A stretch of DNA of 54,186 nucleotides from Promethearchaeota archaeon. GTDB lineage: Archaea; Asgardarchaeota; Lokiarchaeia; Sigyniarchaeales; SOKP01. Within the stretch, counting starts at the first letter, position 1. Each line of letters begins with the position of its first letter. The DNA lies in the NCBI GenBank assembly GCA_019057865.1, contig JAHLWP010000031.1, forward strand, positions 1 to 54,186, given 5' to 3'. The notes under the pieces were generated by a model, which saw nothing but the letters and a program-made list of their open reading frames with translations, was not told the DNA's origin and made no database searches. A program made the translations under genes and the position numbers. Shown here in pieces: positions 14,684 to 37,321 of the stretch.

Positions 14684-15520
14684 TTGGAGTTTATTTCCAA
14701 CTTGAAAATTACACTCAGCCTTTGGGATATTGCTGGACAAGAACGATTTGATTTCTTTAAAACTGATTTCTATAAGGGTGTTGCTGCCATAGGATTAGTT
14801 TTCGACTTAAGTCGTCCTGATACTTTTGATGATATTGATGTATATTTTAATGACATAAGGAATAGATCAGGAAACGTCCCAATTATCTTAGTTGGAAATA
14901 AGAATGACTTGAAAAAGGATTTAGGCGAAACTATACCTCGCAAAAGAATAATACAAAAAGTAAACCAGCATCATTTATTTGAATATATTGAAACTTCAGC
15001 ATTAGAAAATGAAAATGTAGATAATTTGTTTAATCGACTAGCTATTATTGCTTTATTAGATCTTCAGCCTAGATTAGGAGAAGTAGTCGATATAAATCAT
15101 TTTAGATTTAAAATATTGCTTGTGGGGAGCGCTGCAGTTGGTAAATCATCATTAATTAAAACCTTTATTGGGAAGAAATTTGAAACAAGCTATAAATTAA
15201 CTGTTGGTTTAGATTTTATGACTCGAGATTTTGAAATACCCGATGAAGATTTGCCAAAGGAGGTTCATGATGTAATTAAAAAGGCTGTTAAAACTTTCAG
15301 AAAGAAATTTAAAAGGCTCTATAAAAAAGAAGAAGTTCCAAAAATAAGTCCAATTAGAAAAAAAACACCAACTAAAAAAATTTTAATTGAAACGGCTCCA
15401 GATCAAGAAAATGATAAAATCAAAAAGAGAACACATTTATATAGAAAGTTTTTCCTTCTTTCTTTAACAATTGTAATAATTGCATTAATAATAATCAGTT
15501 TCTTCTTCCTTTTCCGTTAA
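14684..15520 (+). CDS. Circularly permuted Rab-like GTPase with C-terminal transmembrane anchor
   Basis: Motif order is WDIAGQE (G3), NKND (G4), ETSAL (G5), then GSAAVGKSS (G1) and TVGLDF (G2). C-terminus is FFLLSLTIVIIALIIISFFFLFR. The start may be the TTG at 14702, after GGAG. Confidence 0.88.
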   Translation: MEFISNLKITLSLWDIAGQERFDFFKTDFYKGVAAIGLVFDLSRPDTFDDIDVYFNDIRNRSGNVPIILVGNKNDLKKDLGETIPRKRIIQKVNQHHLFEYIETSALENENVDNLFNRLAIIALLDLQPRLGEVVDINHFRFKILLVGSAAVGKSSLIKTFIGKKFETSYKLTVGLDFMTRDFEIPDEDLPKEVHDVIKKAVKTFRKKFKRLYKKEEVPKISPIRKKTPTKKILIETAPDQENDKIKKRTHLYRKFFLLSLTIVIIALIIISFFFLFR

Positions 15521-32169: not shown

Positions 32170-32277
32170 ATAAAGAATAATTCTGCAATATATATTGATA
32201 TAATAAATGATTTAAAAAAATTATTTTTAGATAAGTAAAAGAAAGAGATATCCTAAAAACCACATTTTTTTTAGCGT

Positions 32278-32428
32278 TTCCGGGATCCCGAACCACCTCG
32301 AAAATAGTTGGTTTTTCGGATGGGACCGGGTATTTTCCTCGAGTAACATGACCGTGAGCGAACTCACAATTTGCCATTTCCCACTGATCGCAACAGCAGT
32401 ACTATTGGACAACGTAAACGAGTTTAAC
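32278..32428 (-). rRNA. rrf: 5S rRNA gene, circularly permuted and intron-containing
   Basis: The minus strand reads the 3' half first (GUUAAACUCG...AGUAC...GGGAAA...UUGUGAG), then UUCG, then the 5' half (CUCACGGUCAU...AUACCCGGUCCCAUCCGAA[30 nt]CCCGGAA). These are hallmark 5S motifs in swapped order, in a GC-rich island within AT-rich DNA. Confidence 0.93.
32285..32314 (-). other. Predicted 30-nt BHB intron in 5S rRNA loop C
   Basis: Central helix UCCG/CGGG, bulges AAA and AUC, intron stem AACCA/UGGUU. Removal restores CCCAUCCGAACCCGG. Confidence 0.82.
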
Positions 32429-32479
32429 TTCCGGCGCTTAGCTAGCAGCTGATTATGTGGTATTAAACTATACTAACCA

Positions 32480-32487
32480 TTTTATAA
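32480..32487 (-). promoter_or_regulatory. Probable TATA box of the 5S precursor
   Basis: TTATAAAA on the minus strand, about 20-25 nt upstream of the ACCACAU arm (32461) that pairs with the trailer. Confidence 0.5.
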
Positions 32488-32606
32488 GTACGGTTATTTT
32501 ATTAAAAAATACCTTCCTATATGGTTATAAGTAAATGAAATAATAAAGACTAGTAATTAAATTTTTTCATACTAAAAGATTAACTTTAAAAGGAATAAAT
32601 CGAGAG

Positions 32607-35753: not shown

Positions 35754-37321
35754 ATGGTTTATAATTTAGAAAATGTAAAAGGCATTGGTAATGAAACAGC
35801 AGAGAGATTAAGATCAGCAGGTATTAATTCAATTGAAAAGTTAGCTGAATTATCCATTAAAGAATTATTAGGATTAAAAATAAAAGGTATTGGAAAAGCA
35901 ACTGCATCTAAATATATTGAAAATGCTAAAAACTTACTTGAAACAGAAAGCGTAAAAGTAAAAGAAGAACTCCCAAAACTTGAAAAACAAGCTCCACCAT
36001 CAAAAAAAGTGTCAGCTAAAAAAGGACCTAATCTTAAAGAGCTAATTGTACAACAAGCAGAATGTAATATAGGGCTCGTAGGTCATGTAGATCATGGAAT
36101 GATTACGTCATTTAGCCAATTCCCATAAAAACTACACTAGTTAAGGCACTTACAGGAGATTGGACAGATAGACATTCAGAGGAGCAAGAGCGAGGTATAT
36201 CTATAAAATTAGGGTATTCGAATGCGACAATTCTTTACTGCCCTACTTGTGACCTATATTTTACAAAATATATGGTTGAACAAGAAAGAGTAAAGGGCCA
36301 ACCACGATTCACATGCTTAAAATGTAAAAATGAATTAGAGTTTAAAAGAAATATTTCTTTTGTTGATGCACCGGGGCATGAAATATTAATGGCGACTATG
36401 TTAAGTGGAGCTTCATTGATGAATGGAGCATGTTTATTAATTGCAGCAGATGAAGATTGCCCACAACCCCAAACAAGGGAACATTTAGCGGCCTTAAATA
36501 TCGCCGGGATACAGAATATTATTATCATTCAAAATAAAATTGACGCCGTTTCAAAAGAACAAGCTTTAGAAAATTATATACAAATCAAGGAATTTATTAA
36601 GGGAACTATTGCTGATAATGCTCCAATCATACCCATCTCAGCTGTCTTTAACTCTAATTTAGGTCTTATTGTAAGAGCATTTGAAGAAATAATTCCTTCT
36701 CCAGAAACCAATGAAAATGAATCCTTTCAGTTTTTAATTGCAAGATCATTTGATATTAATCGCCCTGGAAAAGAAATTAAAGATTTAAAAGGAGGAGTAA
36801 TAGGCGGTTCTGTATTAAAAGGGAAAGTTAATATTGGGGATCGAATAGAGATACGCCCTGGTATTCGCATAAAAAATAATTATATGCCTATACAATCAAC
36901 TATCGTAAGTATAAGTCAAGGGAACAATAATCTTGAGAATGCTAAACCTGGCGGTCTAATAGGATTAGGAACAAAATTGGATCCATCCTTAACTAAAGGA
37001 GATCATCTAATAGGGCATTTAATTGGGAAACCAGGAGCATTACCCGAAGTTCTTACTGAAGTGGAATTGAAAGTTAATCTACTTGAACGTGTAATCGGTA
37101 CTGAGATGCAAATTAAAGTTATTGAACTTAAACATAACGAAAAATTGTTATTAGTTGTTGGAACTGAAAAAACAGCTGGAACTGTTACTAAAATTTTAAA
37201 AAACTCGTTTATCCTTAAATTAAATCCTCCTATTTGTATCCCAGAAAATTTTATATTTGCTATATCCAGAATAATAAATAGACGCTATAGATTAATTGGA
37301 TATGGTGAAATATTTAATTAA
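35754..37321 (+). CDS. eif2g: Translation initiation factor aIF-2 gamma with N-terminal HhH domain; join(35754..36099,36129..37321), 512 aa after removal of a 29-nt insert
   Basis: The joined frame reads [41 protein letters not shown], then the Zn knuckle CPTC/CLKC, DAPGHE, QPQTREH, NKID, ARSFDINRPG and RLIGYG. Confidence 0.93.
36100..36128 (+). other. Predicted 29-nt BHB-type mRNA intron in eif2g
   Basis: Central helix AUGG/CCAU, bulges AAU and AAA. Cuts after the second bulge nucleotide restore GGA AAA ACT. Confidence 0.8.

What the first reader, a model, noticed from the sequence alone, without database searches (positions are those of the whole stretch)
32278..32320. Second, nested BHB: a 30-nt intron in 5S loop C leaving a 7-nt micro-exon
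Seen (minus strand): UCCCA-UCCG-AAA-AACCA-(13 nt)-UGGUU-CGGG-AUC-CCGG. This is a 4-bp central helix UCCG/CGGG, two 3-nt bulges and a 5-bp intron stem. Cutting AA|A and AU|C removes 32314-32285 and restores CCGGUCCCAUCCGAACCCGG, the conserved loop C (uL5-binding region). Only 7 nt (CCCGGAA, 32284-32278) separate this 3' splice site from the circularisation site. The same CCGG can pair with either the leader or helix III, so the two reactions may be ordered or coupled (inference). BHB introns are established in archaeal tRNA, 16S and 23S rRNA; I am not aware of one in 5S.
Basis: partly seen in the sequence, partly recalled or inferred. Interest (0 to 1): 0.9.

Follow-up and report, generated by a model that had tools for sequence, protein, structure and literature searches.

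The report
Spliced mini-intron in permuted 5S rRNA
A 30-base insert in loop C of this Asgard (Promethearchaeota) archaeon's back-to-front 5S ribosomal RNA gene has the shape and exact cut sites of an archaeal tRNA-type (bulge-helix-bulge) intron, and environmental RNA from a near-identical relative contains the predicted spliced and rejoined 5S, a kind of intron I found no report of in 5S rRNA.

Summary
Confirmed and supported. On the minus strand, 32435-32277 is a circularly permuted 5S rRNA gene, the only 5S-like gene found in a 99.7%-complete genome. Bases 32314-32285 are a 30-nt insert in loop C. It is absent, at exactly these boundaries, from relatives with the same gene layout.

Thirteen genes carry an insert at this site. 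An alignment of ten of them, two with unrelated insert sequences, keeps this geometry with compensatory changes (0/500 shuffles).

Metatranscriptome contigs from two studies, 119/120 identical to the intron-bearing gene of relative G012, read ...CCCAUCCGAA|CCCGGAA|GUUAAAC... They therefore lack the 30 nt, and the 7-nt micro-exon is joined to the gene's first base. This joined form is in none of the 54 genus genomes. The genome encodes an (alpha-beta)2-type splicing endonuclease and RtcB.

Caveats:
- The RNA is not from this organism itself.
- The exon-side helix is interrupted, so the motif is relaxed.
- An alternative hairpin is predicted to be 5.7-8.2 kcal/mol more stable.
- Reaction order is untested.

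This scan has noted the same intron and permuted Asgard 5S genes on other genomes. I found no paper reporting either.

The parts
32455..32461 (-). Leader strand (ACCACAU) of the long-range processing stem. It pairs with AUGUGGU at 32265-32259.
   Evidence: Minimum-energy fold of 32475-32250. The same complementary pair flanks the gene in relatives.
32428..32438 (-). Leader half of the terminal (circularisation) BHB: AGCG (32438-32435), CCGG (32434-32431), bulge AAG (32430-32428). The cut falls between 32429 and 32428.
   Evidence: Sequence. The fold pairs AGCG with CGCU and CCGG with CCGG, P about 0.8. RNA contigs start the joined sequence at G32428.
32315..32428 (-). Exon 1 (114 nt), in gene order: helix III 3' side, loop B, helix II, loop E, helix IV, loop D, helix I 3' strand, UUCG loop, helix I 5' strand, helix II, helix III 5' strand, and most of loop C, ending ...CCCAUCCGAA.
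   Evidence: After rotation and splicing it aligns colinearly with ordinary 5S rRNAs of sister families at 56-62% identity. RNA contigs cover exactly this stretch.
32354..32367 (-). Helix I closed by a tetraloop (GUGAG-UUCG-CUCAC). This is the hallmark of the permuted gene order.
   Evidence: A pattern built on this feature hits 55 contigs, nearly all titled Promethearchaeota/Promethearchaeia or 'uncultured archaeon' MAGs, with a few carrying other Asgard phylum labels.
32317..32320 (-). Exon strand of the 4-bp central helix (UCCG).
   Evidence: It pairs with CGGG 32290-32287. The pairs are invariant or C-G to U-G in 10 sequences.
32314..32316 (-). 5' bulge AAA, with the cut after the second A (between 32315 and 32314).
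   Evidence: Boundary from insert-free relatives. RNA contigs end the colinear match at 32315 and continue with CCCGGAAGTT.
32285..32314 (-). The 30-nt intron: A, stem AACCA (32313-32309), 13-nt loop region, stem UGGUU (32295-32291), CGGG (32290-32287), AU.
   Evidence: Absent from insert-free relatives at these boundaries. Six of seven stem pairs show compensatory changes. Absent from the RNA contigs. Present in all 4 JGI metagenome contigs that carry this clade's exon context.
32284..32286 (-). 3' bulge AUC (AAC in every relative), with the cut after the U (between 32285 and 32284).
   Evidence: In the window the U fixes the boundary uniquely. In relatives the GAA repeat leaves it ambiguous over 3 nt.
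32278..32284 (-). The 7-nt micro-exon CCCGGAA: the last base of loop C, the helix III 3' strand and two further bases.
   Evidence: The RNA contigs read GGTCCCATCCGAAC-CCGGAA-GTTAAAC. Its CCGG pairs with the leader CCGG in the precursor fold and with CCGG 32329-32326 in the 5S fold.
32273..32279 (-). Trailer half of the terminal BHB: bulge AAA (32279-32277, cut between 32278 and 32277) and CGCU (32276-32273).
   Evidence: The pairing covaries in G001 (AGUG with UGCU).
32326..32329 (-). Helix III 5' strand (CCGG). It is the exon-side outer helix partner of 32283-32280, separated from the central helix by UCCCA (32325-32321).
   Evidence: invariant, so uninformative.

Best explanation
Bases 32314-32285 (minus strand) are a bulge-helix-bulge (archaeal tRNA-type) intron in loop C of a circularly permuted 5S rRNA gene.

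Proposed mechanism: the pre-5S transcript is cut by the splicing endonuclease at four places.
- Two cuts lie in the terminal BHB: leader AA|G at 32429/32428 and trailer AA|A at 32278/32277.
- Two cuts lie in the intron BHB: AA|A at 32315/32314 and AU|C at 32285/32284.

RtcB then joins A32315 to C32284 and A32278 to G32428. The product is a 121-nt RNA with an ordinary loop C, most likely a closed ring whose helix I is capped by UUCG.

Shown:
- the motif, its exact boundaries, and its conservation with covariation;
- the presence of the enzymes;
- an RNA in nature, from a near-identical relative, with both junctions joined.

Inferred:
- that EndA and RtcB are the acting enzymes;
- that this organism itself does the same;
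- the order. I favour circularisation first, because the micro-exon's CCGG is predicted to be held by the leader in the precursor and only afterwards becomes free to form helix III beside the intron.
For: Motif and coordinates.

Boundaries: insert-free relatives with the same layout read CCCATCCGAACCCGGAAACGC.

Distribution: 13 genes carry a 30-nt insert at this site, 12 genus genomes plus L087.

Covariation (10 of these genes aligned): 97.3% of cells are paired, 6 of 15 pairs change on both sides, and 0/500 shuffles reach any of the five measures. Sliding the partner by one column drops pairing to 55-61%. G042 (stem AGUA/UACU) and L087 have unrelated insert sequences yet keep UCCG-AAx...CGGG-AAC.

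Chance of the register: 1.8e-4.

RNA: contigs of 137 and 147 nt from two metatranscriptome studies lie only on 32315-32434. Their overhangs spell CCCGGAAGTT after 32315, and (CCC)GGTCCCATCCGAAC before CCGGAAGTTAAAC. Both are longer than the 121-nt product and include the helix I loop.

Source of the RNA:
- The contigs match the G012 gene at 119/120, and the seven best-matching genes all carry the insert.
- All 4 JGI metagenome contigs with this clade's exon context have the 30-nt gap and none lacks it.
- The joined sequence is absent from all 54 genus genomes.

Enzymes:
- One EndA subunit has the Tyr-His-Lys triad and the lysine-bearing N-terminal loop of the A. pernix catalytic subunit.
- A second EndA subunit lacks the catalytic His.
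- One RtcB is present.
- Only (alpha-beta)2 and epsilon2 EndAs cut relaxed BHBs, and the L1 loop is conserved in Asgard (PMC5829648).

Support from relatives: other 30-31-nt inserts in their 5S genes are canonical BHBs at two further sites.
Against: - No RNA from this organism was available. Insert-bearing and insert-free genes with 96-98% identical exons exist elsewhere in the genus (G060 vs L091, G048 vs L067). An insert-free source for the RNA contigs is therefore unlikely but not excluded.
- The BHB conformer is not the predicted minimum. An alternative hairpin (CCCGG/UCGGG plus CCAUCCGAAAA/UUUUCGAGGUGG) is 5.7 kcal/mol better locally and 8.2 in the full precursor. The BHB pairs have probability of at most about 0.01, both in the precursor and in the circular intermediate.
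- The exon-side helix is interrupted by 5 nt.
- Contigs cannot show how much RNA stays unspliced. They also cannot show the excised intron or the chemistry of the ends.
Confidence: 0.85

Rival explanations
1. The 30 nt are an expansion segment kept in the mature 5S rRNA, like the loop C and helix III inserts of some bacteria and the Halococcus insert.
For: [quoted passage not shown] The insert forms a self-contained hairpin.
Against: RNA contigs from a 119/120-identical relative lack it and read straight across the junction. A retained hairpin would not need a 4-bp helix with two 3-nt bulges in a fixed register, nor a constant 30-nt length, conserved across unrelated insert sequences.
Confidence: 0.05
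2. The insert is removed, but by another route than EndA/RtcB. Examples are excision of an intervening sequence by a double-strand RNase acting on the alternative long hairpin, or degradation followed by an unrelated ligase.
For: The alternative hairpin is the predicted minimum-energy fold in the window's clade. No enzyme assay was possible.
Against: - The alternative hairpin lacks covariation support (46/500 shuffles) and breaks in the divergent inserts.
- In that hairpin the 5' junction lies inside a helix.
- The product is ligated, not fragmented.
- The junctions fall after the second nucleotide of each 3-nt bulge, which from my own knowledge of the literature is the EndA rule.
Confidence: 0.05
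3. The RNA contigs come from an insert-free strain. The insert-bearing gene of this genome would then be unspliced, poorly functional or a pseudogene.
For: Insert presence or absence varies between genes with 96-98% identical exons. No same-sample DNA could be laid.
Against: - It is the only 5S-like gene in a 99.67%-complete genome.
- The insert is present in all 5 species genomes and all 4 metagenome contigs of this clade.
- BHB geometry is under purifying and compensatory selection.
Confidence: 0.05

Closest known systems
BHB introns in archaeal 16S/23S rRNA genes (Thermoproteales and other Crenarchaeota; Jay & Inskeep 2015, PMC4496867)
   Same: An rRNA gene is interrupted by an intron defined by a bulge-helix-bulge. 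Distribution among close relatives is patchy. Removal is by the tRNA splicing machinery.
   Different: The host here is 5S rRNA, for which my searches found no reported intron. The intron is tiny (30 nt, no ORF). The lineage is Asgard, not Crenarchaeota. The gene is also circularly permuted, so the intron lies 7 nt from a second BHB.
Non-canonical and multiple tRNA introns cut by (alpha-beta)2 / epsilon2 EndA (Kaneta et al. 2018, PMC5829648)
   Same: The motif is a relaxed BHB with one imperfect side. The enzyme has a catalytic subunit with the lysine-bearing loop plus a non-catalytic subunit. Several cuts and ligations act on one small RNA, leaving very short exons.
   Different: The substrate is not a tRNA. 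The exon-side helix is 5S helix III, and it competes with the terminal processing helix.
Permuted, circularised SRP RNA of Thermoproteus tenax (Plagens et al. 2015, PMC4731332)
   Same: A structural non-coding RNA gene is permuted, and function is restored by EndA-dependent circularisation at a BHB.
   Different: That case has one BHB and no additional intron. Here a second, internal BHB intron sits next to the circularisation site.
5S rRNA expansion segments (Stepanov & Fox 2021, PMC7812874)
   Same: An insert of tens of nucleotides rooted in the loop C / helix III region of 5S, folding as an independent hairpin.
   Different: Those inserts are retained in the mature RNA. This one is missing from the RNA and carries splice-site geometry.
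Permuted organelle 5S rRNAs (Valach et al. 2014, PMC4267664) and circular 5S species in Sulfolobus/Halobacterium (PMC12558985)
   Same: They show that 5S tolerates permutation and can occur as circles.
   Different: The organelle molecules are permuted RNAs, not BHB-processed genes. The archaeal 5S circles come from ordinary genes, have variable ends, and are thought to be linked to degradation.

Membership tests
Archaeal BHB (splicing-endonuclease) intron | Two 3-nt bulges on opposite strands, separated by a 4-bp helix | tested here: met
   UCCG/CGGG with bulges AAA and AUC. Kept in 10/10 aligned genes and found by script in this register.
Archaeal BHB (splicing-endonuclease) intron | Cuts after the second bulge nucleotide on both sides restore the uninterrupted mature sequence | tested here: met
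   The predicted product CCCAUCCGAA|CCCGG equals the insert-free relatives and the RNA contigs.
Archaeal BHB (splicing-endonuclease) intron | Flanking helices on both sides (hBHBh') | tested here: inconclusive
   The intron-side helix is present and covaries, with 6 pairs changed on both sides. The exon-side helix (CCGG/CCGG) is separated from the central helix by 5 unpaired nt and never varies. The motif is therefore relaxed.
Archaeal BHB (splicing-endonuclease) intron | Host encodes a splicing endonuclease able to cut relaxed motifs, and an RtcB ligase | tested here: met
   Two EndA paralogs: a catalytic one with the crenarchaeal-type loop and one lacking the catalytic His. One RtcB at 561 bits. 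The link between enzyme type and specificity is taken from PMC5829648.
Archaeal BHB (splicing-endonuclease) intron | Spliced, ligated exons present in cellular RNA | tested here: met
   Two metatranscriptome studies. The source is 119/120 identical to the intron-bearing G012 gene, not this organism itself. The joined form is absent from the DNA of 54 genomes.
Archaeal BHB (splicing-endonuclease) intron | Cleavage by EndA giving 2',3'-cyclic phosphate and 5'-OH ends, with the intron released (often as a circle) | not testable with these tools
   Needs enzyme assays or circRNA sequencing. No RNA cover of 32285-32314 was seen.
5S rRNA (Rfam RF00001) | Match to the covariance model above the gathering score | tested here: not met
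   No hit in the window or the whole genome as encoded. This is expected for a permuted, interrupted gene. The rearranged sequence could not be given to cmscan.
5S rRNA (Rfam RF00001) | Colinear helices I-V and conserved loop C / loop E motifs after rotation and splicing | tested here: met
   Aligns end to end with ordinary 5S rRNAs of four sister-family genomes at 56-62% identity, sharing CGGTCAT, CCCAT(T)CCGAAC and GTA motifs.
5S rRNA expansion segment | Insert retained in the mature 5S RNA | tested here: not met
   RNA contigs lack the 30 nt.

The most novel reading that the evidence does not exclude
BHB sites in this lineage's 5S gene may move over evolutionary time. The loop C intron would then be the fossil of an earlier permutation junction, created when a partial tandem duplication shifted the gene's break point by 7 nt. 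Introns, micro-exons and permutation points would be interconvertible states of one EndA/RtcB-dependent gene architecture.

Hints:
- Four different cut-and-join sites lie within 17 nt of loop C among close relatives: GGUC|CCAU, CCCAU|CCGAA, CCGAA|CCCGG and CCGGAA|GUU.
- The intron's 3' end (CGGG-AA|C) mimics the leader strand (C[CU]GG-AA|N), and its 5' start mimics the trailer.
- The intron of G069 contains a 17-nt duplicate of the exon end.
Probability: 0.3. Interest if true: 0.85.

Novelty: new variant of a known kind. Interest (0 to 1): 0.8.

Why it matters
5S rRNA is the one rRNA for which I found no reported intron (literature searches). It is also usually regarded as needing no splicing-type processing in archaea.

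In this Asgard lineage, the group closest to eukaryotes, a working 5S can be made only by the tRNA-splicing enzymes. They must cut the transcript four times and join it twice, through a 7-nt micro-exon. Three consequences follow:
- It extends the known substrate range of EndA/RtcB.
- It explains why standard tools report no 5S gene in these genomes.
- It offers a natural system for studying how two adjacent, mutually exclusive BHBs are ordered.

Ribosome-focused work on Asgard archaea and rRNA annotation pipelines would both need to take this into account.

Tried and rejected
- Rfam scans of the window at gathering and at E<=10 found no 5S. The only hits were chance matches (ODC_IRES, a CRISPR repeat, SNORD44).
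- ARAGORN found no tRNA in the window.
- RNA runs X22 and X23 gave no cover. This is no evidence either way.
- No contig covered 32285-32314 in the RNA runs, so nothing can be said about an unspliced precursor or a free intron.
- The alternative long hairpin was considered as the functional structure. I rejected it for lack of covariation and because it buries the 5' junction.
- A shifted BHB register (CCGA/UCGG, 28 nt) also passes the geometric test. It would give CCGAAAACCCGG, which neither the relatives nor the RNA show.
- A generic BHB scan of all genes and flanks gives many hits in AT-rich flanks, so it is not specific on its own.
- One folding run used a mis-built constraint string, and its constrained energies are void. 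It was redone.
- Ordinary 5S elsewhere in the genome: none found.
- Literature searches for a permuted archaeal 5S or a 5S intron found only organelle permuted 5S and 5S expansion segments.

Full report
**What is in the sequence**

Read on the minus strand, 32438-32273 has every part of a 5S rRNA, but in rotated order:
- It starts in the 3' half of loop C (GUUAAAC at 32428).
- It runs through helices II, V and IV.
- It closes helix I with a tetraloop (GUGAG-UUCG-CUCAC, 32367-32354).
- It continues through the 5' strands of helices II and III.
- It ends ...CCCGGUCCCAUCCGAA, then 30 further nt, then CCCGGAA.

Rfam finds no 5S in the window or anywhere in this 99.67%-complete, 4.26-Mb genome. A DNA search finds this single copy only. 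After rotation and removal of the 30 nt, the sequence aligns end to end with ordinary 5S rRNAs of sister families at 56-62% identity.

The organism is a Promethearchaeota (Lokiarchaeia-type Asgard) archaeon from marine sediment or cold seeps.

**Checking the observation**

- UCCG 32320-32317 pairs with CGGG 32290-32287.
- The bulges are AAA 32316-32314 and AUC 32286-32284.
- The intron stem is AACCA 32313-32309 with UGGUU 32295-32291.
- CCGG 32283-32280 follows.

Only 1.8e-4 of 2,000,000 shuffles of the insert give this geometry in this fixed register.

Two qualifications apply. First, the exon-side helix (helix III, CCGG/CCGG) is separated from the central helix by five unpaired bases, so the motif is a relaxed BHB. 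Second, the drawn fold is not the predicted minimum-energy fold. An alternative hairpin, in which the intron's 3' half pairs with loop C and the helix III 5' strand, is 5.7 kcal/mol better locally and 8.2 kcal/mol better in the full precursor. It also dominates in a modelled circular intermediate.

**Relatives**

The genus holds 54 species genomes. Forty-nine have this permuted gene and none has an ordinary 5S above the Rfam threshold, whereas other families of the order do.

Two break points occur:
- Most species are broken at GGUC|CCAU.
- The window and about 20 others are broken at CCGGAA|GUU.

Among the latter group:
- G013, G018, G062, G067, G023, G010 and G051 read CCCATCCGAACCCGGAA with no insert.
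- G000, G056, G055, G012, G063, G001, G041, G049, G068, G060, G048 and G042, plus the MAG behind L087, carry an insert at exactly this point.
- The insert is always 30 nt.

In relatives the 3' bulge is AAC, so a GAA repeat blurs the boundary over three positions. In the window it is AUC, which fixes the boundary to 32314-32285.

The inserts of G042 and L087 are unrelated in sequence, yet they keep UCCG-AA|N, an adjoining stem, and CGGG-AA|C.

I aligned ten genes and counted pairs:

| Measure | BHB structure | Alternative hairpin |
|---|---|---|
| Cells paired | 97.3% | 88.8% |
| Pairs changed on both sides | 6 of 15 | 2 |
| Shuffles reaching the observed value | 0/500 on all five measures | 46/500 to 305/500 depending on the measure (46/500 for cells paired) |
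| Pairing with partner slid one column | 55-61% | 49-59% |

The alternative hairpin also breaks in the divergent inserts. In those genes the BHB conformer lies within 0.3-2.5 kcal/mol of the minimum.

**RNA evidence**

I laid four RNA runs on 32200-32500:
- X19 gave one contig of 137 nt.
- X20 gave contigs of 147 and 95 nt.
- All lie only on 32315-32434.

Their overhangs are informative. Downstream of 32315, in RNA sense, they continue CCCGGAAGTT. Upstream of 32434 they read (CCC)GGTCCCATCCGAAC. The leader's CCGGAA (32434-32429) is identical to the micro-exon's CCGGAA, so the aligner ran on into the leader.

The RNA therefore reads ...CCCAUCCGAA|CCCGGAA|GUUAAAC... The 30 nt are missing, and the micro-exon is joined to the first base of the gene.

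The two long contigs exceed the 121-nt product, repeat the junction region at both ends, and contain the helix I tetraloop. That fits a closed ring, or at least molecules that cross every point of it.

The joined sequence occurs in none of the 54 genus genomes. Only the other permutation type's ACCATCC... variant matches, with one mismatch.

**Whose RNA is it?**

- The two long contigs differ from the window at 4-5 of 120 positions and match the G012 gene at 119/120.
- The seven best-matching genes all carry the insert, and the nearest insert-free gene is about 80% identical.
- Caution: elsewhere in the genus, insert-bearing and insert-free genes have 96-98% identical exons.
- I therefore searched JGI metagenome contigs for this clade's exon context with a gap of 0-30 nt. 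All four hits have the 30-nt gap and none is insert-free.
- One of those contigs (L120) has exons identical to the window and an intron ending GGGAA, so U32285 is a strain variant.

An insert-bearing source for the RNA is thus very likely, but not proven.

**Enzymes**

The genome has two single-domain EndA paralogs and one RtcB.
- The 200-aa EndA aligns best with the catalytic subunit of the Aeropyrum pernix heterotetramer. It keeps the Tyr-His-Lys triad and the N-terminal loop with its lysine (INKPR against VEKPR).
- The 207-aa EndA has the catalytic His replaced (KDSAKF against KEHSVY of the M. jannaschii enzyme).

This is the (alpha-beta)2 architecture. According to Kaneta et al. 2018 (PMC5829648), this type, together with epsilon2, is the only one that cuts relaxed BHBs, and its L1 loop is conserved in Asgard archaea.

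**Mechanism and order**

In the predicted precursor fold:
- An outer stem forms (ACCACAU 32461-32455 with AUGUGGU 32265-32259).
- AGCG pairs with CGCU.
- The micro-exon's CCGG pairs with the leader's CCGG (P about 0.8).
- AAA forms the trailer bulge.

This is the terminal BHB. The same CCGG must pair with 32329-32326 to give helix III beside the intron, so the two motifs exclude each other.

I infer that circularisation comes first. It releases the leader and frees CCGG for helix III, and the intron is cut afterwards. If all four cuts preceded ligation, the 7-mer would be held by 4 bp only. None of this was tested. The stable alternative hairpin means that the splice-competent fold probably needs protein help or kinetic trapping.

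**Comparison with what is known**

BHB introns are established in tRNA, in 16S/23S rRNA (PMC4496867) and in cbf5 mRNA (PMC2738675). A permuted, BHB-circularised SRP RNA is known in Thermoproteus (PMC4731332). Retained 5S inserts exist (PMC7812874), as do permuted organelle 5S RNAs (PMC4267664) and minor circular 5S species from ordinary genes (PMC12558985).

Five full-text searches found no report of a BHB intron in 5S rRNA, nor of a permuted archaeal 5S gene. The library is incomplete, so this is not proof of novelty.

Earlier notes of this scan describe the same intron and permuted Asgard 5S genes on other genomes. I treated them as leads only.

**Verdict**

This is a new variant of a known kind: BHB splicing applied to 5S rRNA, nested beside a circularisation BHB with a 7-nt micro-exon. 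My confidence that the 30 nt are removed by BHB-type splicing is 0.85, and I score interest at 0.8.

Noticed in passing
L012, L014, L017, L024, L028, L040, L109 (relatives' 5S genes, loop D; corresponds to window 32389/32388): A second family of exactly 30-nt inserts sits in loop D (UUGCGA|...|UC). They form fully canonical BHBs with helix IV as the outer helix: UUGC-GA|G...GCGA-AA|U, UUGC-GA|U...GCAG-AA|U, and the compensatory forms UUAC...GUGA and UUGA...UCAG. G049 carries both the loop C and the loop D insert; G063 also has a 30-nt loop D insert by eye, but the BHB script did not call it.
   Followed up: partly
L046:1613-1670 (G069): A 31-nt BHB insert lies at a different loop C site (UCCC-AU|U ... 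GGGA-AA|C). Removing it restores CCCAUCCGAAC. The insert contains a 17-nt duplicate of the exon end (GGAUAAUACCCGGUCCC), which looks like the footprint of a partial tandem duplication.
   Followed up: partly
Genus-wide (L011-L060): Two different permutation points coexist within one genus. Most species are joined at GGUC|CCAU, and the window's group at CCGGAA|GUU. Both have leader ...C[CU]GG-AA| and trailer |A-CGC BHB halves and a conserved leader hairpin.
   Followed up: partly
window 32330-32287, minus strand: The intron's 3' half is almost perfectly complementary to exon 1's last 18 nt (16 bp, -19.5 kcal/mol). This hairpin would hide loop C and the 5' splice site. It is kept in the window's clade but not in divergent introns. 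Whether it delays splicing or reflects the insert's origin is open.
   Followed up: partly
L050 (G051), between GUUAAAC and the loop E motif: A further insert of about 30 nt in the helix II / loop B region of a relative's permuted 5S gene. I did not analyse it for BHB geometry.
   Followed up: no
window 32455-32520 and relatives' upstream regions: A conserved upstream element (AAAATAACCG..CTTATAAAATGGTTA) lies about 55-90 nt before the first mature base. It is probably the BRE/TATA promoter of the 5S unit. T-runs follow the trailer.
   Followed up: no
window 36086-36136 and 14684-15520: Earlier notes on this window report a candidate 29-nt BHB intron splitting the P-loop of aIF-2 gamma, and a circularly permuted Rab-like GTPase. 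I examined neither here.
   Followed up: no
L075, L076, L083, L086-L089, L095, L096, L102, L112, L114: Permuted 5S genes with the same helix I tetraloop hallmark also occur in more divergent Promethearchaeota MAGs, with different loop C sequences and trailers. One of them (L087) has a 30-nt loop C insert at the window's site.
   Followed up: partly
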